Part shown: positions 8,275 to 63,125 of the stretch, one piece after another
Layout: every line of letters starts with the position of its first letter
How positions within the stretch are numbered: the stretch's first letter is position 1
The notes under the pieces: generated by a model
What the model was told of the DNA's origin: nothing
Databases searched by the model: none
What the model saw: only the letters and a program-made list of their open reading frames with translations
DNA from: Escherichia phage vB_EcoM_JS09
Length of the DNA stretch: 64,000 nucleotides
Strand: one strand, 5' to 3'
Sequence record: NC_024124.2
Translations under genes and position numbers: made by a program

Positions 8275-8507
8275 GTATAGCAATTTACATTAAATCAGAA
8301 TCATGTGATAGTTATCTGTACACATACGATAAAGATGTGTCAGAAGAAAAAATCAAAGACGACCTTAATACGGACCTTGATTTGTTCCGTCCTATTGCAG
8401 ATTACAAACTTGCGGTCTCTAATAGTGAAAGTCCATCTAAAGAAACGCGCATTGAAGAATTTATGTCCAAATTAATGGCCAAATCATGGGACCGAGATGA
8501 TGAGTAA
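8271..8507 (+). CDS. hypothetical protein (78 aa)
   Basis: ORF track trimmed to ATG at 8271 (ATGA overlap). Confidence 0.45.
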   Translation: MSIAIYIKSESCDSYLYTYDKDVSEEKIKDDLNTDLDLFRPIADYKLAVSNSESPSKETRIEEFMSKLMAKSWDRDDE

Positions 8508-8955
8508 GAAAAATAAAGTGAAAGAGCTATCAGCCGGTATTATCTTCATGACAAAAGATAAAGAGTTATTCATGGGGCGTGTAACTGGTTCTCGTCCTAA
8601 AGGTGCATTAGCTCATCGGTGGGATATTCCTAAAGGCCGTGTCGAACCCGGCGAATCTCCTATTGAAGCCGCTATTCGTGAATGCGAAGAAGAAACTGGG
8701 TTTACACAATATGACCCTGCCTTCCTGAAAGACCTAGGCGAACATCATTACTCAGACAATAAGAATATTCATCTGTTCCAATATACCATCCCTGTAGAGC
8801 ACGAGCAATTCAGAAACAGTGTTTGTAATTCCTATCATACATTCCCGGACGGACGACAGATTCCTGAATTTGATGCATTCGCTTTAATTAAACCTTCTCA
8901 ATGGGAATATGTAATGGGCAAATCATTATATAAGGTGCTCACTACCCTCCTATAA
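8497..8955 (+). CDS. nudE: Nudix hydrolase
   Basis: Nudix box GRVEPGESPIEAAIRECEEETGF; sits immediately upstream of lysozyme as in T4 (e.1). Confidence 0.8.
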   Translation: MMSKKNKVKELSAGIIFMTKDKELFMGRVTGSRPKGALAHRWDIPKGRVEPGESPIEAAIRECEEETGFTQYDPAFLKDLGEHHYSDNKNIHLFQYTIPVEHEQFRNSVCNSYHTFPDGRQIPEFDAFALIKPSQWEYVMGKSLYKVLTTLL

Positions 8956-8989: not shown

Positions 8990-9478
8990 ATGAATATATT
9001 TGAAATGCTTCGTAATGACGAAGGTCTTAGACTGACTTTATACAAAGACACTGAAGGCTTTTGGACGATTGGCATAGGCCATTTAGTAACAAAGAACCCG
9101 TCTTTAGCCGTAGCTAAAGCTGAACTTGACAGAATGATCGGTCGTAAATGCAACGGTACAATTACCCTTGATGAGGCTGAAAAGCTATTTAATGAAGACG
9201 TTGATAAAGCCGTCCGCGGAATCTTGGGTAATGCTAAACTTAAACCGGTATATGATTCTTTAGATGCAGTTCGTCGATGTGCATTGGTCAATATGGTCTT
9301 CCAAATGGGTGTAGCAGGTGTAGCTGGTTTTACTAATTCTCTTCGTATGCTTCAACAAAAACGTTGGGATGAAGCGGCAGTAAATCTAGCCCAATCTAAA
9401 TGGTATCGTCAGACACCTAATCGCGCGAAACGCGTAATCTCAACATTTAAAACAGGAACTTGGAAAGCGTATATATGA
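8990..9478 (+). CDS. e: T4-type lysozyme (endolysin)
   Basis: [32 protein letters not shown]... near-identical to T4 lysozyme as recalled; GGAGG before ATG at 8990 (8978 in the track is a GTG). Confidence 0.95.
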
Positions 9479-10755: not shown

Positions 10756-11058
10756 ATGAAAACATATCAAGAATTTATTACTGAAGCGCGAGTGAGTGCA
10801 GGTAAATTAGAAGCCGCTATAAATAAAAAGGCCCATTCATTTCATGATTTGTCCGATAAAGACCGTAAGAAACTTGTAAGCCTTTATATTGACAAAGAGC
10901 GTATTCTCGCTCTTCCTGGCGCTAATGAAGGTAAACAGGCCAAGCCTTTGAATGCTGTCGAAAAGAAAATTGATAACTTTGCTTCTAAATTCGGTATGTC
11001 TATGGATGACCTTCAGCAAGCGGCTATCGAAGCAGCTAAAGTAATTAAAGGTAAATAA
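10756..11058 (+). CDS. internal head protein-like (100 aa)
   Basis: N-terminus MKTYQEFITEA; T4 IP-sized. Confidence 0.75.
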   Translation: MKTYQEFITEARVSAGKLEAAINKKAHSFHDLSDKDRKKLVSLYIDKERILALPGANEGKQAKPLNAVEKKIDNFASKFGMSMDDLQQAAIEAAKVIKGK

Positions 11059-11115
11059 CAGTTTACTTTCTCCTAGAATTGTGATAGTATATTCATAATT
11101 ACTTGGATGGGTAAA

Positions 11116-11244
11116 ATGACTTATATTAATTTGACTTTAGTATCTAAATTTGCTGATCAACATTTAATCGCCGAATACTGTGAATTGCCACGTGTTTTTG
11201 GTATAATTCGTAAACACGTGGCAAAAATATTTACATTCAAATAA
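11116..11244 (+). pseudogene. truncated second copy of denV 5' end (42 codons)
   Basis: Translates [42 protein letters not shown], matching the denV N-terminus at 9815 and then stopping; has its own GTTTAC promoter at 11061. Confidence 0.6.
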
Positions 11245-11387
11245 AATGGGAACAACCTGGACCTCATGATTCTATGAGGGATTCCCGCCAACCTGTAATA
11301 AGGTCGAGCCCAAGTGCGGTAATGGGTAAATACAGAAATGGACAATTCATGCGCCATGGAATGGCCCCCAACCTTAAGAGAAATAAT

Positions 11388-11927
11388 ATGAGAACATTTT
11401 TAACTGGACCTTATCTATCCCTGATGAATGCTTTTACACACCATTCTGATGCTAGAGTAGAAGAAATTTGTAAGAACGGTTATGCCCCACCATTTGAAGA
11501 CGTACTCAAGCAGTACTGTACACTTCGTTTAGACGGCGGCAGACAATCAGGTAAATCGACCGCAGTAACTAATTTTGCTGTTAATTGGCTGTATGACGGT
11601 GGAACAGTTATTGTTCTTTCTAATACTTCAGCTTATTCTAAAATTTCTGCTGGCAACATTGAAAAAGAATTTTCTCGTTATTCTAGCGACGATATTCGAT
11701 TCCGTTTATTTACTGATTCTGTCCGTAGTTTTATTGGCAATGAAGGTTCTAAATTCCGTGGATTAACGCTTTCTCGTATTCTGTATATAATTGACGAGCC
11801 TATTAAAGCTCCTGATATGGATAAGATTTACAACATACATATTAAAACAGTCCAACACTGTTGCAAAAGCAAATATTGCATCGGCGGTATTGCTCGTCCT
11901 CAATTTTTTGTGATTGGAATGCAATGA
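11388..11927 (+). CDS. P-loop NTPase-like protein (179 aa)
   Basis: Walker A GGRQSGKST and Walker B-like ILYIIDEP; start set at ATG 11388 (AAGAGAAA upstream); in-frame ATGs at 11274 and 11322 are alternatives. Confidence 0.55.
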   Translation: MRTFLTGPYLSLMNAFTHHSDARVEEICKNGYAPPFEDVLKQYCTLRLDGGRQSGKSTAVTNFAVNWLYDGGTVIVLSNTSAYSKISAGNIEKEFSRYSSDDIRFRLFTDSVRSFIGNEGSKFRGLTLSRILYIIDEPIKAPDMDKIYNIHIKTVQHCCKSKYCIGGIARPQFFVIGMQ

Positions 11928-12232
11928 TGACCACTATTGAAGTTTTTGAGTATTGTTATAACAGCCCAGTATGCAATAAAAGGGCTCTTGTAGAAAATTA
12001 CGAGATCTACCATTTTAAACCTAAACGATATTGTTTGACTAAAGGTCCGTTCGCAGGTCAGCAGGTTCTTTGTACTGCTCCTAATGCACGGTTGATGACT
12101 AGTATTCCGCATTTCAAAATGGAATTTATTGATGGGCCGTTTAAGGGATTAATCACTCAAAGTTTAATGGCGTTTAATTCCGTCCCATTTTTGATTAAAG
12201 AAAAAACTTGGATAAATTTATTTTCTAATTGA
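11924..12232 (+). CDS. hypothetical protein (102 aa)
   Basis: ORF track trimmed to ATGATG at 11924 (overlaps upstream stop). Confidence 0.5.
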   Translation: MMTTIEVFEYCYNSPVCNKRALVENYEIYHFKPKRYCLTKGPFAGQQVLCTAPNARLMTSIPHFKMEFIDGPFKGLITQSLMAFNSVPFLIKEKTWINLFSN

Positions 12233-12238
12233 GGTTAT

Positions 12239-12601
12239 ATGAAAGCATATCAAATTCTTGAAGGTGCGCATAAAGGCACTATTTATTTTGAAGACGGTAC
12301 TCAGGCCCGGATTATTGTCTCTAAGACTTTTAAAGAAGACGCTATTGTAGACCCGGAAATTTTCTACGGTTTGAATGCCCGTGAAATTGAAATTGAACAT
12401 CAACCTAAAGTTAAAATTGAAGGTGGTCAACACCTGAACGTTAACGTTCTGCGTCGTGAAACTCTGGAAGATGCAGTTAAGCATCCGGAAAAATATCCTC
12501 AGCTGACCATCCGTGTATCCGGTTATGCAGTTCGCTTTAACTCTCTGACTCCAGAACAGCAGCGCGACGTTATCGCTCGTACCTTTACTGAGAGTCTATA
12601 A
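12239..12601 (+). CDS. grcA: GrcA/YfiD-like autonomous glycyl radical cofactor
   Basis: C-terminus [63 protein letters not shown] carries the RVSGYAV glycyl-radical motif; C-terminal half uses CTG/CGT-rich host-like codons. Confidence 0.85.
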
Positions 12602-12825
12602 TGGCTAAATTGATTATAGAAGGGTCTGAAGATGTTTTAAAATGTTTTGCCGCCTGGTTTAGTTGCTCAGGCGAGCAATCATTCACTGAAGCATTTAGAA
12701 TGGGTGATATTACCGGAAACTATCCGACAACTGATATCACTGTACGTGGATATGGTATTAATGAGCCTATCCAATTGGTCGAATATGACCTTGCCACCGA
12801 TGAGGAAATTCCTTATGTCGATTGA
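12601..12825 (+). CDS. hypothetical protein (74 aa)
   Basis: ORF track; ATAATG overlap. Confidence 0.5.
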   Translation: MAKLIIEGSEDVLKCFAAWFSCSGEQSFTEAFRMGDITGNYPTTDITVRGYGINEPIQLVEYDLATDEEIPYVD

Positions 12826-13081
12826 AGATATTAAAGGTTACAAACCGCACACCGATGACAAAATCGGCAAAGTGAACGCTATTAAAGATGCCGAAGTCCG
12901 TCTTGGATTGATGTTTGATGCTCTGATTGAAGAAGCATATATCTTGAAAGAAAATGAAACAGAGCAACAAACCAAAGAAGATATGGATGCAGTGCAGGCT
13001 CTTAAGTACGCTAAGCAACATCTAAAAGAAGCCAGCATGTGGGCGTGTCGTGCAGTATTTCGACCTGAGGAAAAATACTAA
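12815..13081 (+). CDS. hypothetical protein (88 aa)
   Basis: ORF track frame 12647 trimmed to ATG at 12815; short overlap with upstream gene. Confidence 0.45.
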   Translation: MSIEDIKGYKPHTDDKIGKVNAIKDAEVRLGLMFDALIEEAYILKENETEQQTKEDMDAVQALKYAKQHLKEASMWACRAVFRPEEKY

Positions 13082-13296
13082 TGGCTTCTACTATTACTGG
13101 GTTATTGGACTTTCAAGAAAAGGTCAACAAAATTTGTAGTGAATACTTAAAGTATCTTGAAGAAGACCTTGAAGATTGTAAGGAAGAAGGCGAAGAAGAC
13201 TATGCTGACCAGCGCCGACGCCAAATCGAAGAGATGAGGCATTTCGCCGATATGGTATCTAAAGAATCTTGGGCTTTAACTCCATTTTATCAATAA
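13081..13296 (+). CDS. hypothetical acidic protein (71 aa)
   Basis: ORF track; TAATG overlap. Confidence 0.5.
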   Translation: MASTITGLLDFQEKVNKICSEYLKYLEEDLEDCKEEGEEDYADQRRRQIEEMRHFADMVSKESWALTPFYQ

Positions 13297-13300
13297 AGTA

Positions 13301-13329
13301 GTTTACTTCTCCTCTAGTTGTGTTACTAT
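13301..13329 (+). promoter_or_regulatory. T4-type early promoter with 14-bp inverted repeat
   Basis: GTTTAC (13301-13306), 17-nt spacer, TACTAT (13324-13329); TTCTCCTCTAGTTG (13307-13320) is the perfect reverse complement of CAACTAGAGGAGAA (13339-13352), which holds the SD of the next gene. Confidence 0.65.
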
Positions 13330-13357
13330 AGACCTTGTCAACTAGAGGAGAAACCAA

Positions 13358-13816
13358 ATGACTATCAATTCGGAAGTTTTTATCCGCCGTAATAAACTCC
13401 GTCGAATCTTTGAAACGGAGTTCCGCAAAATAAATGCCGGTATAAAAGATGCTGCAAAGTCTCTTGGACTACCAGGCTTTCATATCAAGTATTCTCAACA
13501 TCTCTTAGATCGTGCCATCCAGAGAGAAATAGATGAGAATTACGTTTTTGAATTATTTCATAAAGTAAAAAATCATGTTAAAGAAGTTGCAGAATTTTTA
13601 TCAATGCCGGCACGTCCAGATGTTGATGAAGATTTTGTCGAAGGTGTCGAATATCGCCCAGGCCGTTTAGAAATAACTGATGGAAATCTTTGGTTAGGAC
13701 TTACAGTTTGTCGCGAAAATCCAGCATTCAAAATGAAGACTCTTCAATGTAGAATGGCTATTATTAACAGTAAACGACTACCAGGAAAAGCTTCTAAAGC
13801 AGTGATTAAAATCTAG
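13358..13816 (+). CDS. regB: RegB-like endoribonuclease (152 aa)
   Basis: Size and position between denV and tk as in T4; sequence matches my recollection of RegB; GAGGAGAA upstream. Confidence 0.55.
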   Translation: MTINSEVFIRRNKLRRIFETEFRKINAGIKDAAKSLGLPGFHIKYSQHLLDRAIQREIDENYVFELFHKVKNHVKEVAEFLSMPARPDVDEDFVEGVEYRPGRLEITDGNLWLGLTVCRENPAFKMKTLQCRMAIINSKRLPGKASKAVIKI

Positions 13817-13824
13817 AGGTAAAC

Positions 13825-14367
13825 ATGAGAAAAGCACTACTCGCTGGTCTATTTGCTCTTTCGTTATCAGCACATAGCTCCGAGCATACTTTTAGTAATG
13901 TCCAACTCGATAACTTGAATTATGCTTATCAGTTTGGGGAACAGTTTTCTAAGGACGGAAAATTTAAAACGCATGAAAATATGCATAAGAAAGGACTTGG
14001 ATACATAATGGCCGCAATACTATGGCAGGAATCATCTGCTGGTATTAATCTTAAAGATAAGAAAGGTCACCATGCGTATGGAATGTTCCAAAACTATCTA
14101 CCAACAATGAGGGCAAGAATTAACCAGCTTGGTTATAATATGACTGATGCCCAAATTAAGAAAATGCTATCTAAGCGGTCTAATTCAACCAGATGGGCTT
14201 ATATCGAATTTTCTTATTGGTTAAATATACATAATGGGGATATAAGAAAAGCTATATCCTCATACAATGCGGGATGGAAGACAAGTGCTGGAAGTAAATA
14301 TGCTTCTGAAGTCCTAGAAAAGGCTAATTACCTTAAATCAAATAAACTACTGGAAATAAAAGAATGA
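13825..14367 (+). CDS. secreted lytic transglycosylase-like protein (SLT motifs)
   Basis: Signal peptide MRKALLAGLFALSLSAHS; ILWQESSAG, YGMFQNY and SSYNAGW resemble SLT domain motifs. Confidence 0.6.
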   Translation: MRKALLAGLFALSLSAHSSEHTFSNVQLDNLNYAYQFGEQFSKDGKFKTHENMHKKGLGYIMAAILWQESSAGINLKDKKGHHAYGMFQNYLPTMRARINQLGYNMTDAQIKKMLSKRSNSTRWAYIEFSYWLNIHNGDIRKAISSYNAGWKTSAGSKYASEVLEKANYLKSNKLLEIKE

Positions 14368-14711
14368 CCAAAGTGTTGGCTTTAATAGTTGGCTTGGTTT
14401 CATTTAACGCTCTTGCTAATACTACATATACTGATGTAACGGAGTATACAAACAGAACGGCGTCTGATTATTGTGGTAAAAGTCAAGAGTGTAAAGTAGA
14501 TTTTTCACAAAAATTGTTATATGCGTATAAAGACGGAGAAAAAGATGGGGCGTCTAGTAGGTTCAAGGCGTCTACCTTAATTAAAAGATACTATAAAAAA
14601 TGGCAAATATTAGAATGCTCGGTGGCGGAACCTAAAGATAAGGCAGCATGCAATTCTATGGTGGACCGTCTAGTTGACTCTTATAATAGAGGACTTGCAG
14701 CAAGTGATTAA
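14364..14711 (+). CDS. secreted Cys-containing protein (115 aa)
   Basis: Signal peptide MTKVLALIVGLVSFNALA; ATGA overlap. Confidence 0.55.
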   Translation: MTKVLALIVGLVSFNALANTTYTDVTEYTNRTASDYCGKSQECKVDFSQKLLYAYKDGEKDGASSRFKASTLIKRYYKKWQILECSVAEPKDKAACNSMVDRLVDSYNRGLAASD

Positions 14712-15171
14712 AAACTATATCAAGGGCGATATTGTCGCCCTGTTTTCTAAAGGTAATAATATTGCTCATGGGTGTAATTGTTTTCATACAATGGGCGCCG
14801 GTGTAGCAGGCCAATTAGCAAAGGCTTATCCAAAAATTTTAGAAGCCGATAAACTTCAAACCGAATTCGGAGACAAGTCTAAACTCGGGACTTATTCGGT
14901 TTATGAAAAATATTTTAAGACCCATAAAGCTTATTGCTTTAATCTTTATACGCAGTTTGAGCCGGGACCTAATTTTGAGTACTATGCTTTAATGAATTGT
15001 ATAATAGAATTAAATGAATTCGGAAAGAATAAGATAACAAAGCCTGTAATTTATATGCCAAGAATTGGTGCAGGTATCGGTGGCGGAAACTGGGATGTCA
15101 TCGAAGAGATTTTAGACACATATTCCACTAAACTAGAAATTGTGATTGTTGATTGGGAACCATTATTATGA
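14674..15171 (+). CDS. macro domain protein (ADP-ribose binding/hydrolase fold)
   Basis: NNIAHGCNCFHTMGAGVAGQLAKAYP fits the macro-domain Gly-rich signature; start overlaps upstream gene by 38 nt (only in-frame ATG). Confidence 0.65.
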   Translation: MTLIIEDLQQVIKNYIKGDIVALFSKGNNIAHGCNCFHTMGAGVAGQLAKAYPKILEADKLQTEFGDKSKLGTYSVYEKYFKTHKAYCFNLYTQFEPGPNFEYYALMNCIIELNEFGKNKITKPVIYMPRIGAGIGGGNWDVIEEILDTYSTKLEIVIVDWEPLL

Positions 15172-15380
15172 ATATACATTATCCACATCCATATGACCCA
15201 AAGAATAAGGCAGTAATTATTCGTCAATGGGAACGCATTTGTCGTACCAAATGTCCAATTAATAGTCCACACGATGTAGATAAAGACTACATCGGAACAT
15301 TCGTTGAATATACCTTTATTGATAAGAAAGGCCGTAAACAACATGTAGAAGAATATTGCTTAAAGGTGACATGGTTATGA
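15168..15380 (+). CDS. hypothetical protein (70 aa)
   Basis: ORF track frame (15153 is a TTG); ATG at 15168 overlaps macro-gene stop. Confidence 0.5.
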   Translation: MNIHYPHPYDPKNKAVIIRQWERICRTKCPINSPHDVDKDYIGTFVEYTFIDKKGRKQHVEEYCLKVTWL

Positions 15381-15583
15381 GTCAAACAAAAATTCTTACA
15401 GGTGCTAAATGCGAAAAATGCGAATGGCCTGTAGTTTTTGCTTTATGCAATGACGAAATGGCTTGTGATTTTGATTATTGGTGTTACTGTTCGAACAAAG
15501 GTTGTAGCAATCATAAAGGTGAAGGGTTTTACTCAGGATTTTACCCTTACCCGGATTTTGTTAAAGAAGGTGAACCTAAATGA
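15377..15583 (+). CDS. Cys-rich small protein (68 aa)
   Basis: ORF track trimmed to ATG at 15377; CEKCEW...CDFDYWCYCSNKGC suggests metal binding. Confidence 0.5.
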   Translation: MSQTKILTGAKCEKCEWPVVFALCNDEMACDFDYWCYCSNKGCSNHKGEGFYSGFYPYPDFVKEGEPK

Positions 15584-15762
15584 AATTAACTAAAGAAGAG
15601 AAAGCTAAACTGTTCGAACTTATCCATGACCTATTGGATGAGCAAGCAGCCACCAATGCGTACGATGAATATGCTCCTTTGACGGATGAAGAATATCAAA
15701 CATTGTTGGAATCATTTGACAGGAAAGAACAAGAACTCATTGACTACGTGAATTCACTATAA
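15580..15762 (+). CDS. hypothetical acidic protein (60 aa)
   Basis: ORF track; ATGA overlap. Confidence 0.5.
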   Translation: MKLTKEEKAKLFELIHDLLDEQAATNAYDEYAPLTDEEYQTLLESFDRKEQELIDYVNSL

Positions 15763-15771
15763 GGGACTCTT

Positions 15772-16353
15772 ATGGCTAGTTTAATTTTTACATATGCCGC
15801 TATGAACGCTGGTAAGTCTGCTTCATTACTTACTGCCGCACATAACTATAAAGAACGTGGCATGGGTGTATTAGTTCTTAAACCGGCTATTGATACTCGC
15901 GATTCAAAAGGTGAAATAGTCTCTCGTATTGGTATTCGTCAGGACGCCAATATAATTACAAAAGACATGGATATCTTTGAATTCTATAAATGGGCTGCAG
16001 CACAAAAGGATATTCATTGTGTATTTGTTGACGAAGCTCAATTCTTAACTACTGAAAAGGTGTATCAACTTAGTCGTATTGTTGACGTATACAATGTGCC
16101 GGTAATGGCATATGGACTACGAACAGATTTTAAAGGTAATCTATTTGAAGGTTCTCAAGCATTAATGGCTATTGCCGATAAGCTTGTTGAACTTAAAGGT
16201 GTCTGTCATTGTGGTAAAAAGGCCACAATGGTAGCTAGAGTCACGGAAGACGGACTTCCAATTACAGATGGCAGTCAAATTGAAATTGGTGATACCGATA
16301 GATATGTGTCATTATGCCGGAAGCATTGGAATGATTTGACAGGGTTGTTATAA
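15772..16353 (+). CDS. tk: thymidine kinase
   Basis: P-loop TYAAMNAGKSASLL, FVDEAQF and C-terminal Cys cluster; T4 tk-like. Confidence 0.9.
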   Translation: MASLIFTYAAMNAGKSASLLTAAHNYKERGMGVLVLKPAIDTRDSKGEIVSRIGIRQDANIITKDMDIFEFYKWAAAQKDIHCVFVDEAQFLTTEKVYQLSRIVDVYNVPVMAYGLRTDFKGNLFEGSQALMAIADKLVELKGVCHCGKKATMVARVTEDGLPITDGSQIEIGDTDRYVSLCRKHWNDLTGLL

Positions 16354-16380
16354 ATACTAATATCTAACCAAGAGGTATAT

Positions 16381-16593
16381 ATGCAGCAATTAAACGAAAG
16401 ACAACTTCGTAATCTTACTGTAACCCAATTGGATGAAATCCGAAGAGAATTAGGACATTCTATTTCTCATTTAAACGAGGATATCCGTCAAACTGGTTCT
16501 AAAGCTGATTATACACGCAAGCGCAAGCTGGAAAAATACCTCACAGATGTTAAGGCCGTCCAAAGGCGAAAAATAAATACTGGCCAAAATTAA
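16381..16593 (+). CDS. hypothetical protein (70 aa)
   Basis: ORF track; AAGAGG upstream. Confidence 0.5.
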
Positions 16594-16605
16594 CAGGAGG
16601 CCTAT

Positions 16606-16908
16606 ATGGCCTTAAGAGCGATAGCTGTCATGGCGATGCTGGGGTTTTTTGCAGCAACAACTCCTATCGTTGGTACTGCATATATCGACCCATATTTTGA
16701 TAACTTTATGGAATCAGGGATTAAAAACGTATATACTTTGTTTGAAATTCAAAATGTCGAGAATTCTGAAAAATTCTATAAGTATATGGCAAAGCATTAC
16801 AAAAATAGCCCCTGTGATGATGCATTTGAATGTCATGAACAAGGCATAAAAACTGCCAGACAATTTGCCGAGTTCATGAAAATAAAATTAGAGCCTACAT
16901 CTATCTAA
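16606..16908 (+). CDS. rI: lysis-inhibition protein RI-like (secreted, 100 aa)
   Basis: N-terminal MALRAIAVMAMLGFF signal-anchor and overall sequence match my recollection of T4 RI; AGGAGG upstream. Confidence 0.6.
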   Translation: MALRAIAVMAMLGFFAATTPIVGTAYIDPYFDNFMESGIKNVYTLFEIQNVENSEKFYKYMAKHYKNSPCDDAFECHEQGIKTARQFAEFMKIKLEPTSI

Positions 16909-16914
16909 TTTACT

Positions 16915-16943
16915 AGCCCCTTCCTTACGGTTGGGGCTTTTTT
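16915..16943 (+). terminator. intrinsic terminator (same family as 745)
   Basis: AGCCCC / GGGGCT stem followed by a T-run. Confidence 0.7.
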
Positions 16944-16953
16944 GCATTTAGCA

Positions 16954-16982
16954 GTTTACTTCTCCTCAGGTTGTGTTATAGT
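16954..16982 (+). promoter_or_regulatory. T4-type early promoter
   Basis: GTTTAC (16954-16959), 17-nt spacer, TATAGT (16977-16982) with upstream TG; TTCTCCTC complements the downstream GAGGAGAA SD. Confidence 0.6.
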
Positions 16983-17009
16983 AGTCCTTACTTACTAGAG
17001 GAGAACGTT

Positions 17010-17189
17010 ATGTCACGTAAAGAAAAAATTTCTAAGTTAATGTTTTTGATTGAAGAGTACGCTAATGCTGTATCTGATTGGGAAAATGCTCATGGTTGCG
17101 AAGATGGAGACATCGACATTAACAGAGCTATGAAAAAGATGACCGATGCCCACACCGAATTGCAAATGTATGTTAACGAGATTATGTGA
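17010..17189 (+). CDS. hypothetical protein (59 aa)
   Basis: ORF track frame (16971 is a TTG) trimmed to ATG at 17010 after GAGGAGAA. Confidence 0.5.
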   Translation: MSRKEKISKLMFLIEEYANAVSDWENAHGCEDGDIDINRAMKKMTDAHTELQMYVNEIM

Positions 17190-17196
17190 GGATATT

Positions 17197-17361
17197 ATGC
17201 TTTACGATTATACTGGAAAATCTGAAGACGGTGTACTTGAACTTTTACCTGAAAGCGCTGAAGATGATATGGTAGTGATGTTTTGTGTTGGTTGTCAATC
17301 AATGCGTGATGAAATTTTTAAACGTGAACCAAGAAACTGTTGGCACAGGAGCATGAGATGA
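17197..17361 (+). CDS. hypothetical protein (54 aa), paralog of 17453
   Basis: ORF track trimmed; begins MLYDYTGKSEDGVLELLPE. Confidence 0.5.
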   Translation: MLYDYTGKSEDGVLELLPESAEDDMVVMFCVGCQSMRDEIFKREPRNCWHRSMR

Positions 17362-56821: not shown

Positions 56822-57472
56822 ATGATTTATTACATGCACAAAAATGCGCCATTTAAATATGGTAAATTTCCTAATGCGCAATGTTATAATATAACGCCGA
56901 ATGAAAATAATAACGGATATCATATTGGTGTAATTTTTGTAATTGTTAAAGATAACGAAATCGTTGCCTGGGCAGATTTTAAAGGTACAACATATGATGT
57001 TAATCCTGTGCCTTTCACATATTACAATATAATGGATTTGGCATATGATTATAATTGGTTTAATCATGACGCGTTGGTTCATATTGAAGGTGTAGGATTT
57101 GACATCTCCTATTCTAGCTATTCATTATGTCCTATGAGCCGAGCTCACGGTAAAGATGTATCATATCTTTCAATTCGGAAACGTGTAAACTTCAAACGTA
57201 GTACAGAGTATGTTGGTGGACTCTTTGTTAAAGATAATAAAATAACCCGTATTAGTTATCCTCTAAGTGTAGGTCAAAAAGATGTTGATGTTGATTTAGA
57301 CTTAACTGAAAATAACATTAATCATATTGCTTCTGTATATTTTGATATCGATGAAAAAATTGTAGTGTGTGGATACGAATTACCACCCGAAGAAAAGGCT
57401 GAAGCAATTGAAGTCGAATTAGAAATTTCTGTCGATGACCAAATATTTAATGCATTTATGAATCGAGGTTAA
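56822..57472 (+). CDS. hypothetical protein (216 aa)
   Basis: ORF track frame (56813 is a GTG) trimmed to ATG at 56822. Confidence 0.6.
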   Translation: MIYYMHKNAPFKYGKFPNAQCYNITPNENNNGYHIGVIFVIVKDNEIVAWADFKGTTYDVNPVPFTYYNIMDLAYDYNWFNHDALVHIEGVGFDISYSSYSLCPMSRAHGKDVSYLSIRKRVNFKRSTEYVGGLFVKDNKITRISYPLSVGQKDVDVDLDLTENNINHIASVYFDIDEKIVVCGYELPPEEKAEAIEVELEISVDDQIFNAFMNRG

Positions 57473-61877: not shown

Positions 61878-62459
61878 ATGACATGTCAATCTGAACTTCA
61901 AGAACGCGAATACCTAACAAATCTGATTGATAGCAAATTCACCCGCCAAGAACAAAACATTCTCTGGGCCTGCACCGATTCTAAGGAAGACCCGGATTTC
62001 CACTATGAATTAGACCATCTTGTTCGTAAGCATATGACTTCTACAGTGCCAGTAGAACTCTACCGTGGTGTAACTCCAGAAGAAGTAGAACGTCTTTCCC
62101 TTCTTTCTGTGGGATGCCATTGGTCTCCTGGACGAGTAACATCGTTCACAACTGATTTCAGTACAGCTCGTCAATTCTCCGGGAGATGGGAATATCAGAC
62201 GTACACTATTCTTAGTCTCAGGAATGCTCCATTCATTTTTGATTACTACCAAAACATGGTTAACATTGTACTTGCCGGAAAGAACCCTAAGCATGTTATG
62301 GAAGAAACGCGTGTTGACGTCCTAGATATGATTGAATCTGAACAAGAATACATGGTCTCAGGTATCTCTAGATTTGAGATTGCGGAAATTGAAGAGTTAG
62401 AGTATGACCCTTTGTCTCGAGTATACAAAATCATTCACTTAAAGATGTTGAATTTTTAG
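61878..62459 (+). CDS. ModA/ModB-family ADP-ribosyltransferase-like protein (193 aa)
   Basis: R-S-E-type triad candidates: VELYRGV, SFTTDFSTARQF, ESEQEYMVSG; paralog of the next gene. Confidence 0.6.
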   Translation: MTCQSELQEREYLTNLIDSKFTRQEQNILWACTDSKEDPDFHYELDHLVRKHMTSTVPVELYRGVTPEEVERLSLLSVGCHWSPGRVTSFTTDFSTARQFSGRWEYQTYTILSLRNAPFIFDYYQNMVNIVLAGKNPKHVMEETRVDVLDMIESEQEYMVSGISRFEIAEIEELEYDPLSRVYKIIHLKMLNF

Positions 62460-62516
62460 TGTACAAACTCTACCTACGATGATACTATACTTTTATCAAC
62501 CACAGGAGAAACCTAA

Positions 62517-63125
62517 ATGTTTATGCCGTATAACGAGTGTGAAATTGAAGAAATGGTTCGTCGTGCTCAAAACCCCGAATATCAAGATGTATTGCAGTAC
62601 GAAATTGATAGTCAATTCAGCGACATTGAACAAAGTGTACTGTGGCAGTGTATGGAAAACAAGCCAGACTGTATTCAACAGGAGTTAAGTTCAATCGTTC
62701 GTAGAAATTGGACGTCTTCTGTTCCTGAGACAATGTATCGTGGAATCTCTAAGAAAACTATGGCCACACTCGATGATAAAGGTATTGGTAGTATTATTAA
62801 ATTTGACAGAGTAATGAGCTTCAGCCCAGTGTTCGGTGTAGCACGTAACTTTGCTTCGTATAATTTTTACGGAACATTTAATATGTTCTGCATCAAAGAT
62901 GCACCATTTGCTTTCAACTTCCGTGAACATATGCTTAATATGATTCTGGCTGCACCATCTTGTGAGTTCAATGGAGCTTTCCCTGAAGCGACAAGACGGT
63001 CTAATGCTAGACTTATATCTGACGAATGTGAATTTATGCTCCCTATAGGGACTACACTGCATGTAGATTCTATTATTCAAGATGGACGTTATACAATCTG
63101 GAATCTGTCTATTGTCAGTTACTGA
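62517..63125 (+). CDS. ModA/ModB-family ADP-ribosyltransferase-like protein (202 aa)
   Basis: R-S-E-type triad candidates: TMYRGISK, SFSPVFGVARNF, DECEFMLPIG; GGAGAA upstream. Confidence 0.6.
   Translation: MFMPYNECEIEEMVRRAQNPEYQDVLQYEIDSQFSDIEQSVLWQCMENKPDCIQQELSSIVRRNWTSSVPETMYRGISKKTMATLDDKGIGSIIKFDRVMSFSPVFGVARNFASYNFYGTFNMFCIKDAPFAFNFREHMLNMILAAPSCEFNGAFPEATRRSNARLISDECEFMLPIGTTLHVDSIIQDGRYTIWNLSIVSY

What the first reader, a model, noticed from the sequence alone, without database searches (positions are those of the whole stretch)
14674..15171. Phage macro domain protein in the regB-to-tk variable region
The ORF has a clear macro-domain Gly-rich signature (NNIAHGCNCFHTMGAGVAGQLAKAYP). 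Macro domains bind or remove ADP-ribose. The same window encodes NudE and two ModA/ModB-like ADP-ribosyltransferases (61878-63125), so the phage appears to carry writer and eraser functions of ADP-ribosylation. Possible roles are reversal of host DarT-type DNA ADP-ribosylation (anti-defence) or recycling of the phage's own ADP-ribosylation products. I do not recall a macro domain gene in T4 itself.
Basis: partly seen in the sequence, partly recalled or inferred. Interest (0 to 1): 0.6.

Follow-up and report, generated by a model that had tools for sequence, protein, structure and literature searches.

The report
Known phage anti-DarT2 macrodomain (Tk.4/AdfM)

Summary
The ORF and its macrodomain signature are real. 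The gene most likely starts at GTG 14704 (155 aa), not at TTG 14674. It is not a novelty of this phage. It is the orthologue of T4 tk.4 (84% identical, no gaps, same vs–tk.4–tk order) and of RB69 tk.4 (98%), annotated "A1pp phosphatase/macro domain" since the early 2000s. About 2,800 of 50,697 phage records carry a homologue.

A 2025 preprint found tk.4 to be the only T4 gene needed to resist DarTG2. A clean knockout sensitised T4, and the gene was renamed adfM.

The predicted fold (pLDDT 95) falls in the ALC1/TARG1/DarG class and is closest to Bt_1257. The catalytic lysine of DarG/TARG1 is an invariant glutamine here (Q84). The characterised thymidine-ADP-ribose DNA hydrolase SCO6735 has the same arrangement, with an essential Gln85. 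The likely mechanism is therefore Gln-type hydrolysis of DarT2-made thymidine-ADP-ribose on phage ssDNA. This is inferred, not assayed.

Side observations: a conserved GC-rich hairpin lies inside the 5' coding region, and the window also encodes AdfA carrying the DarT1-neutralising H164 allele.

Verdict: already known, low interest.

The parts
14704..15171 (+). tk.4 / adfM orthologue: 155-aa single-domain macrodomain protein with a GTG start that overlaps the vs stop codon by 8 nt. Key residues in 155-aa numbering: H22, N25, G31-A-G33, D49, N80, Y82, T83, Q84, G122-A-G124, W130.
   Evidence: ORF. Annotated start in near-identical phages. 84% identity to T4 Tk.4 and 98% to RB69 Tk.4. Pfam Macro. 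phrog_335 at 4e-66. Invariant residues. Model and fold matches.
14689..14693 (+). GAGGA Shine-Dalgarno-like element upstream of GTG 14704 (10 nt between the element and the GTG).
   Evidence: Read from the sequence. These columns are invariant in the window, RB69 and T4.
14674..14703 (+). Probably not translated as part of Tk.4. It is the 3' end of the vs coding region, read in another frame.
   Evidence: Homologues of 84% identity or less align only from residue 11 of the 165-aa ORF. T4 has a TAG stop at the codon before its ATG.
14723..14741 (+). GC-rich hairpin AGGGCGAT-ATT-GTCGCCCT (8 bp, about -13 kcal/mol) inside codons 7-13 of tk.4, followed by GTTTTCT. It looks like a terminator. Its role is unproven.
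   Evidence: Terminator-like scan. Identical 26-nt run in T4, RB69 and teqdroes. Annotated 'terminator' in phage NBG1. Survey and pair counts.

Best explanation
Window 14704-15171 encodes the Mosigvirus (RB69-group) orthologue of T4 Tk.4, recently renamed AdfM (anti-DarT factor, macrodomain). It is an orphan antitoxin-like enzyme made by the phage. When a host DarTG2 system releases DarT2, that toxin ADP-ribosylates thymidines in single-stranded phage DNA and blocks replication. Tk.4 most likely binds the ADP-ribose in its macrodomain cleft and hydrolyses the thymidine-ADP-ribose bond, restoring the DNA.

Its active site is not the lysine type of DarG/TARG1. It is the glutamine type described for Streptomyces SCO6735, where the Gln (Q84 here), held by the conserved Asn (N25 here), positions the distal ribose and a backbone-held water starts the reaction.

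Shown here: the identity of the gene, the fold, and the residue equivalences.
Shown in the literature for T4: the gene is needed for resistance to DarTG2.
Inferred: this copy has the same phenotype, and the mechanism is enzymatic removal of thymidine-linked ADP-ribose.
For: Orthology. 84% identity over all 155 residues without gaps to T4 Tk.4 and 98% to RB69 Tk.4. The order regB-vs.1-vs-tk.4-...-tk is the same.

Phenotype of the orthologue. tk.4 was the only significant hit on a DarTG2 host, a clean knockout sensitised T4, and the gene was named adfM (10.1101/2025.11.20.689424). T4 lacking adfA and adfN stayed DarTG2-resistant, which had predicted a further factor (PMC11825919).

Active site. 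hhalign (98% probability) places Tk.4 N80-L-Y-T83-Q84 on DarG N76-F-P-T79-K80. The profile alignment places it on TARG1 T-K84. Q84 is present in all 119 database homologues and in 71 of 72 IMG/VR loci, and the exception has Lys.

Precedent. SCO6735 has Gln85 at exactly this position. It removes thymidine-ADP-ribose from DNA faster than DarG or TARG1 and rescues E. coli from DarT. Q85A and Q85E are inactive, N27S is nearly inactive, and it has no activity on guanosine-ADP-ribose (PMC9411070). A different phage macrodomain, PhiKZ gp104, removes DarT2-made ADP-ribose from DNA in vitro (PMC13309987).
Against: No biochemical assay of any Tk.4-family protein was found. The T4 preprint itself says only that enzymatic removal 'seems likely'.

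Tk.4 lacks the DarG/TARG1 catalytic lysine. It also lacks the five-residue-longer 'mobile loop' that PMC9411070 gives as characteristic of the SCO6735/Bt_1257 subclass (alignment). It carries its own invariant residues (D49, Y82) of unknown role. Its chemistry could therefore differ from both models.

SCO6735 Q85A still inhibits DarT by direct interaction, so part of the protection could be non-catalytic.

The phenotype was shown for T4, not for this phage, and it comes from a preprint.
Confidence: 0.8

Rival explanations
1. Mainly non-catalytic protection. Tk.4 neutralises DarT2 by binding the toxin, or by binding and shielding ADP-ribosylated or single-stranded DNA, and hydrolysis is secondary or absent.
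For: Catalytically dead SCO6735 Q85A, DarG K80A and TARG1 K84A all inhibit DarT in vitro by interaction, SCO6735 most strongly (PMC9411070). The other phage factors AdfA and AdfB act by binding DarT. Tk.4 lacks the DarG catalytic lysine.
Against: The residues SCO6735 needs for hydrolysis (Gln, Asn, the G-x-G loops) are invariant or nearly so across 119 homologues down to 37% identity. That fits selection for catalysis. Tk.4 has no counterpart of the DarG C-terminal DarT-binding domain (155 aa).
Confidence: 0.1
2. Housekeeping processing of small ADP-ribose metabolites. This is the old 'A1pp phosphatase' annotation: an ADP-ribose-1''-phosphate phosphatase or O-acetyl-ADP-ribose deacetylase like yeast Poa1p, working alongside NudE in nucleotide salvage.
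Against: These labels are transferred from domain names, not tested. The only phenotype found for the T4 gene is sensitivity to DarTG2. T29 is not conserved (76 of the 120 aligned sequences). H22 is also present in TARG1, Bt_1257 and, as H24, in SCO6735, so it is not specific to phosphatases. An in vitro side activity on such metabolites is not excluded.
Confidence: 0.06
3. Eraser for the phage's own ADP-ribosylation. Tk.4 reverses or recycles the marks (or RNA attachments) placed on host proteins by Alt, ModA and ModB.
For: Two ModA/ModB-like genes and NudE are in the same window. SCO6735 and TARG1 have some activity on Glu/Asp-linked protein ADP-ribose.
Against: There is no linkage: tk.4 is about 47 kb from modA/modB and sits in a different conserved block. 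By established knowledge (not tested here), the T4 transferases modify arginine, a linkage removed by ARH-type enzymes and not by TARG1-class macrodomains. Homologues are present in about 2,800 phage records from many hosts and phage groups; whether those phages also carry Mod genes was not checked.
Confidence: 0.03

Closest known systems
T4 Tk.4 = AdfM (anti-DarT factor, macrodomain; bioRxiv 10.1101/2025.11.20.689424) and RB69 Tk.4
   Same: Orthologues: 84% (T4) and 98% (RB69) identical, same length within one residue, same gene order, same invariant residues.
   Different: 16% of residues differ from T4. The start codon is GTG with an 8-nt overlap with vs, where T4 has ATG with a 4-nt overlap. 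The DarTG2 phenotype has not been tested for this phage.
SCO6735 (Streptomyces coelicolor) and Bt_1257 (Bacteroides thetaiotaomicron): the Gln-type subclass of ALC1/TARG1-like macrodomains, thymidine-ADP-ribose DNA hydrolases (PMC9411070)
   Different: Only about 26-29% identical. Tk.4 lacks the longer mobile loop after the Gln. It has family-specific invariants D49 and Y82 (Tyr and Ile in Bt_1257). It is phage-encoded.
DarG antitoxin of DarTG2 (Thermus aquaticus 5M31/5M3E, M. tuberculosis 5M3I)
   Different: DarG has Lys80 (TK-G-G signature) where Tk.4 has Gln. DarG carries a C-terminal DarT-binding domain and is encoded next to darT; Tk.4 has neither.
PhiKZ gp104, also named AdfM (Cell Rep 2026, PMC13309987)
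   Same: A phage-encoded orphan macrodomain that protects against DarTG2. It was shown in vitro to remove DarT2-made ADP-ribose from DNA. Its conserved Asn (N23) corresponds to Tk.4 N25.
   Different: A DarG-like lysine type ('MFPTKDNW'), only about 21% identical to the Tk.4 family (hhalign E 1.4e-9), and imported into the phage nucleus. The shared name hides two different subclasses.
Human TARG1 (OARD1) and yeast Poa1p
   Same: Same fold class (Foldseek E 4e-10 and 7e-10). The H-x-x-N/S first loop and the G-x-G loops are shared.
   Different: The TARG1 Lys84/Asp125 pair is Gln84/Gly126 here. Poa1p is a phosphatase acting on a small metabolite.

Membership tests
Macro domain (Pfam PF01661) | Score above Pfam's curated gathering threshold | tested here: met
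   27.6 bits against a cut-off of 22, residues 32-146 of the 165-aa ORF on profile positions 2-117 of 118.
Macro domain (Pfam PF01661) | Three-layer alpha/beta macro fold with the glycine-rich ADP-ribose-binding loops | tested here: met
T4 Tk.4 / AdfM orthologous group | Full-length high identity to T4 Tk.4 | tested here: met
   130 of 155 residues identical, no gaps, E 7e-104.
T4 Tk.4 / AdfM orthologous group | Conserved position between vs and tk | tested here: met
   regB, vs.1, vs, tk.4, small ORFs, tk in the window and in T4, RB69, teqdroes and PWKp18.
T4 Tk.4 / AdfM orthologous group | Required for plating on a DarTG2-expressing host | not testable with these tools
   Shown for T4 only. 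Needs a deletion mutant of this phage.
DarG antitoxin (NCBIfam NF048014 equivalog; PADLOC DarG) | Whole-protein score above the curated cut-off | tested here: not met
   29.9 bits against a cut-off of 250. Only profile positions 4-146 of 338 are matched. PADLOC matches positions 4-145 of 329.
DarG antitoxin (NCBIfam NF048014 equivalog; PADLOC DarG) | Catalytic lysine (TK-G-G signature, K80) | tested here: not met
   Gln84 aligns with K80 of Mtb and Taq DarG. The signature is taken from PMC8120803.
DarG antitoxin (NCBIfam NF048014 equivalog; PADLOC DarG) | C-terminal DarT-binding domain and an adjacent darT gene | tested here: not met
   The protein is 155 aa and a macrodomain only. The neighbours are vs and a DUF7202 ORF.
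SCO6735 / Bt_1257 Gln-type ALC1-like subclass | Gln at the DarG K80 / TARG1 K84 position, with the Asn that holds it | tested here: met
   Q84 and N25 are invariant in 119 homologues. Bt_1257 shows Q and N in the same columns. The equivalence of SCO6735 Q85 and N27 is taken from PMC9411070.
SCO6735 / Bt_1257 Gln-type ALC1-like subclass | Mobile loop five residues longer than in DarG/TARG1 | tested here: not met
   After the Gln, Tk.4 reads FE-PGP-N-FE, against HGIYKDSKGLPPIR in Bt_1257. It is shorter than both Bt_1257 and DarG.
SCO6735 / Bt_1257 Gln-type ALC1-like subclass | Hydrolysis of thymidine-linked ADP-ribose on ssDNA | not testable with these tools
   Needs an enzyme assay on DarT2-modified oligonucleotide.
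Poa1p-type ADP-ribose-1''-phosphate phosphatase | Residues at the positions mutated in the deposited Poa1p structures (H23, S30) | tested here: inconclusive
   H22 aligns with H23 and T29 with S30. T29 is present in only 76 of the 120 aligned sequences, and the His is shared with non-phosphatase relatives.

The most novel reading that the evidence does not exclude
The Tk.4 family is a third catalytic variety within the ALC1/TARG1-like class. It has the Gln type of active site like SCO6735, but a short loop after the Gln and its own invariant Asp49 and Tyr82. It could therefore have a substrate range wider than DarT2 damage, for example uracil-linked ADP-ribose on RNA, or adducts made by other ADP-ribosylating defences. 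In addition, the conserved hairpin at codons 7-13 may be a real attenuator or terminator that sets how much Tk.4 and downstream tk-region mRNA is made.
Probability: 0.15. Interest if true: 0.4.

Novelty: already known. Interest (0 to 1): 0.12.

Why it matters
For the scan, little: the gene is a long-annotated, widely distributed T4-group gene whose anti-defence role was published in 2025.

Three points have practical value.
- Annotation. Many records call it 'phosphatase' or 'hypothetical', and at least one truncates it.
- Naming. Two unrelated subclasses of phage macrodomain now share the name AdfM, a Gln type (T4) and a Lys type (PhiKZ).
- Biology. This RB69-like phage appears to carry at least two anti-DarT factors in one 64-kb stretch: Tk.4 against thymidine-modifying DarT2, and an H164 AdfA allele against DarT1.

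Tried and rejected
(1) I suspected that the Lys-to-Gln replacement at the DarG/TARG1 catalytic position argued against hydrolase activity. I dropped this after finding that SCO6735 has the same Gln, needs it, and is a faster thymidine-ADP-ribose DNA hydrolase than DarG. One natural family member (L032) has Lys there.

(2) I considered ICP1 AdfB as a phage macrodomain precedent. It is not one. It acts as an antitoxin, probably by binding DarT directly.

(3) To get DarG sequences for alignment I used a remembered Mtb DarG sequence only as a probe. The PDB search confirmed it as 100% identical to 5M3I and supplied the Taq DarG sequence.

I rebuilt the alignment without it.

(5) The sigma-70 promoter scan of 11000-17200 gave no more sites than shuffles (21 against 20.9), so no promoter is claimed.

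(6) Rfam gave no match in 14300-15300.

(7) The T4 genome review (PMC150520) is not held.

(8) My first residue count showed one 'K' among database homologues. That was the PhiKZ reference caught by my own filter. Two 'A' calls in IMG/VR loci were misalignments.

(9) I did not run the large representative-protein search. The phage-collection and IMG/VR results already showed how widespread the family is.

Full report
**What is at the coordinates**

An ORF runs from TTG 14674 to the stop at 15169-15171 on the + strand and contains the quoted motif. The extra N-terminal 10 residues are probably not real. Annotations of near-identical phages start the gene at GTG 14704 (mogra; O157 typing phage 3 RefSeq). 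T4 Tk.4 aligns with the 155-aa product from residue 1 without a gap. More distant homologues align only from residue 11 of the long ORF. In T4 the codon before the ATG is a TAG stop. A GAGGA element at 14689-14693 is invariant in the window, RB69 and T4. The GTG overlaps the stop of the upstream gene vs by 8 nt.

**Is it a macrodomain, beyond chance?**

Yes.
- Pfam Macro is passed (27.6 bits against 22), and phrog_335 matches at 4e-66.
- A profile of 69 family members hits solved macrodomains at E 6e-18 (Bt_1257), 1.7e-15 (TARG1), 2e-14 (SCO6735), 3e-13 (Poa1p) and 7e-13 (Mtb DarG).
- The AlphaFold2 model is confident (pLDDT 95, pTM 0.90).

**Which gene is it?**

The window is an RB69-group T-even phage (genus Mosigvirus). 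The 3.1 kb around the gene is 98.5-98.8% identical to the best-matching of the 154 phage records that lie in the 95-99% identity band.

T4 has the same gene. tk.4 (NP_049723, 155 aa, 'phosphatase; contains A1pp phosphatase motif') lies between vs and tk.3/tk.2/tk.1/tk and is 84% identical. RB69 tk.4 is 98% identical. The order regB-vs.1-vs-tk.4-...-tk also holds in Tequatrovirus teqdroes and a Klebsiella Marfavirus. The A1pp match of tk.4 orthologues was reported in 2006 (PMC1524935).

Homologues occur in 2,791 of 50,697 phage records across Escherichia, Klebsiella, Salmonella, Pseudomonas, Vibrio, Acinetobacter, Aeromonas and other hosts, and in at least 570 IMG/VR stretches. Only the small ORFs between tk.4 and tk differ between phages.

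**What is known about its function**

A November 2025 preprint (HIDEN-SEQ, 10.1101/2025.11.20.689424) screened a T4 transposon library on a DarTG2 host. tk.4 was the single significant hit. A clean knockout sensitised T4 to DarTG2, and the gene was named adfM. The authors state that enzymatic removal of ADP-ribose from DNA 'seems likely', so the chemistry is inferred.

This fits earlier work showing that T4 lacking adfA and adfN stays resistant to DarTG2 (PMC11825919). Independently, a macrodomain of phage PhiKZ (gp104), also named AdfM, was shown in vitro to remove DarT2-made ADP-ribose from a DNA oligonucleotide and to rescue cells from DarT2 (PMC13309987).

**Mechanism: the active site is not DarG's**

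The review PMC8120803 gives DarG the signature TK-G-G with K80, whose mutation inactivates it, and TARG1 the pair K84/D125.

I confirmed a DarG probe sequence against PDB 5M3I (100% identity) and obtained Taq DarG from the same output. hhalign of the family alignment against both (98% probability) places Tk.4 N80-L-Y-T83-Q84 on DarG N76-F-P-T79-K80. The profile-to-TARG1 alignment places Q84 on K84 and G126 on D125. An independent MAFFT alignment agrees.

Q84 is present in all 119 database homologues of at least 120 aa and in 71 of 72 distinct IMG/VR loci. The one exception, L032, has Lys. PhiKZ gp104 keeps the lysine ('MFPTKDNW') and is only distantly related to Tk.4 (hhalign E 1.4e-9, 21% identity). 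The two 'AdfM' proteins therefore belong to different subclasses.

The glutamine is not evidence against catalysis. SCO6735 of Streptomyces coelicolor is 54% identical to Bt_1257, which is Tk.4's best structural match. It has Gln85 at this position and removes thymidine-linked ADP-ribose from DNA faster than DarG or TARG1. It does not touch guanosine-linked ADP-ribose, and it rescues E. coli from DarT. It loses all activity as Q85A or Q85E and nearly all as N27S. The proposed mechanism is a backbone-positioned water, with the Gln holding the distal ribose (PMC9411070). Tk.4 has the corresponding H22, N25, Q84 and glycine loops.

Tk.4 differs in two ways. It lacks the longer 'mobile loop' given as typical of the SCO6735/Bt_1257 subclass, and it has its own invariant D49 and Y82.

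**Family membership**

The protein is a macrodomain and a Tk.4/AdfM orthologue. It is not a DarG:
- the NCBIfam equivalog score is 29.9 against 250;
- only the N-terminal macrodomain part of the DarG models is matched;
- it has no C-terminal DarT-binding domain, no catalytic lysine and no adjacent darT.

It works like the SCO6735 type but fails one of that subclass's stated structural features.

**Rival explanations**

- Protection mainly by binding DarT2 or the DNA remains possible, because dead SCO6735, DarG and TARG1 mutants all inhibit DarT in vitro. The strict conservation of the catalytic residues argues for hydrolysis.
- The old 'phosphatase' reading rests on domain-name transfer and on resemblance to Poa1p. 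A side activity is not excluded, but the only phenotype found is DarTG2 sensitivity.
- An eraser role for the phage's own ModA/ModB marks has no support. The genes are 47 kb apart. By general knowledge, those enzymes make arginine-linked marks that this macrodomain class does not remove.

**Context claims**

The window does encode two ModA/ModB-like proteins (61878-62459 and 62517-63125; phrog_832, E about 1e-38) and a NudE-like Nudix protein (8497-8955).

**Seen in passing**

1. *A hairpin inside the gene.* A GC-rich hairpin (14723-14741, 8 bp, about -13 kcal/mol), followed by a T-rich stretch, lies in codons 7-13.
   - A 26-nt run containing it is identical in the window, RB69, T4 and teqdroes. 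Yet tk.4 is only 80.8% identical at the nucleotide level between the window and T4, and teqdroes Tk.4 is 58% identical in protein.
   - Phage NBG1's record annotates it as a terminator and calls a truncated tk.4.
   - Among 72 distinct homologue 5' regions, 19 fold at -9 kcal/mol or better at the same codons. Of these, 18 beat at least 99% of synonymous recodings. Several stem variants differ by paired changes, for example GGGCGAT/GTCGCCC, TGGAGAT/ATCTCCA and AGGCGAC/GTCGCCT.
   - Over all 72, 60.8% of cells pair, against 56.2 +/- 1.0 in shuffles and at most 49.8% in slid registers. The covariation score is 0.193 against 0.139 +/- 0.012.
   - This is suggestive and restricted to some lineages, and relatedness can inflate such numbers. 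About two thirds of lineages lack the hairpin. Rfam has no match.
2. *AdfA allele.* The window encodes AdfA (56822-57472; Pfam AdfA E 5.8e-120). It is 98% identical to RB69 gp61.2 but has His at RB69 position 164. RB69 has Arg there, and R164H is the change reported to let AdfA neutralise DarT1 (PMC11825919).
3. *Sugar-metabolism genes.* In the near-identical reference phage, KpsF-, GlmU- and phosphoheptose-isomerase-like genes follow the DNA polymerase.

**Verdict**

The gene is the already-known tk.4/adfM. Novelty: already known. Interest: low.

Noticed in passing
window 14723-14741 (with T-rich tail to about 14750): A GC-rich 8-bp hairpin (about -13 kcal/mol) inside codons 7-13 of tk.4. It is nucleotide-identical in T4, RB69 and teqdroes although the genes have diverged, and phage NBG1 annotates it as a terminator. 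In a survey of 72 homologue 5' regions, 19 have a strong hairpin at the same codons, with paired stem changes between lineages; about two thirds have none. It could be an attenuator or terminator, an RNA-stability element, or a by-product of recombination or coding..
   Followed up: partly
window 56822-57472 (+): An AdfA (gp61.2, anti-DarT factor A) homologue: Pfam AdfA E 5.8e-120, 98% identical to RB69's copy, but with His at RB69 position 164 where RB69 has Arg. R164H is the published escape change that lets AdfA neutralise DarT1, so this RB69-like phage naturally carries the 'active' allele..
   Followed up: partly
L006 (Escherichia phage teqdroes) 1501-1980, compared with window 14704-15171: teqdroes tk.4 is only 58% identical in protein to the window's copy. 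Yet in the stretch compared (30 nt upstream plus the first 90 nt of the gene) it matches T4 through the hairpin and diverges soon after it. This looks like a recombination junction inside the gene, an alternative explanation for the conserved 26-nt run..
   Followed up: partly
window 15134-15171: The last 38 nt of tk.4 are 100% identical between the window and T4, the longest identical run in the gene. They overlap the start of the next ORF (ATGA overlap with the DUF7202/tk.3-like ORF at 15168-15380), so this is probably a translational-coupling region..
   Followed up: no
L032 (IMG/VR contig IMGVR_UViG_2974573495_000001) match 1501-1950: This is the only Tk.4-family member found with Lys instead of Gln at position 84 ('NLYTKFRPGPN'). 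It is otherwise a typical family member (44% identity) and also has the 5' hairpin. It suggests Gln and Lys can be exchanged on this scaffold..
   Followed up: partly
L003 44634-47522 (about the same in the window, just after the DNA polymerase gene): KpsF-like arabinose-5-phosphate isomerase, GlmU-like and phosphoheptose-isomerase-like genes follow the DNA polymerase in the near-identical reference phage. From memory, RB69-group phages modify hydroxymethylcytosine with arabinose, and this may be that gene set. Not examined..
   Followed up: no
L088 (phage NBG1 MH243438) 1614-2072; L001 (phage mogra) 1-2568: Annotation errors in public records. NBG1 calls tk.4 as a truncated 126-aa ORF starting downstream of the hairpin. 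mogra labels vs.7, vs.8, vs.3-like and vs.1 ORFs all as 'endoribonuclease', through transfer of the RegB name. Many records call tk.4 'hypothetical' or 'phosphatase'..
   Followed up: no
L003 646-802 (near the start of the window): Two adjacent tRNA genes (Met, Arg) are annotated in the near-identical reference phage. An indel-bearing stretch between the reference and the window lies upstream of about 13300: the Nudix gene is at 9087 in the reference and 8497 in the window..
   Followed up: no
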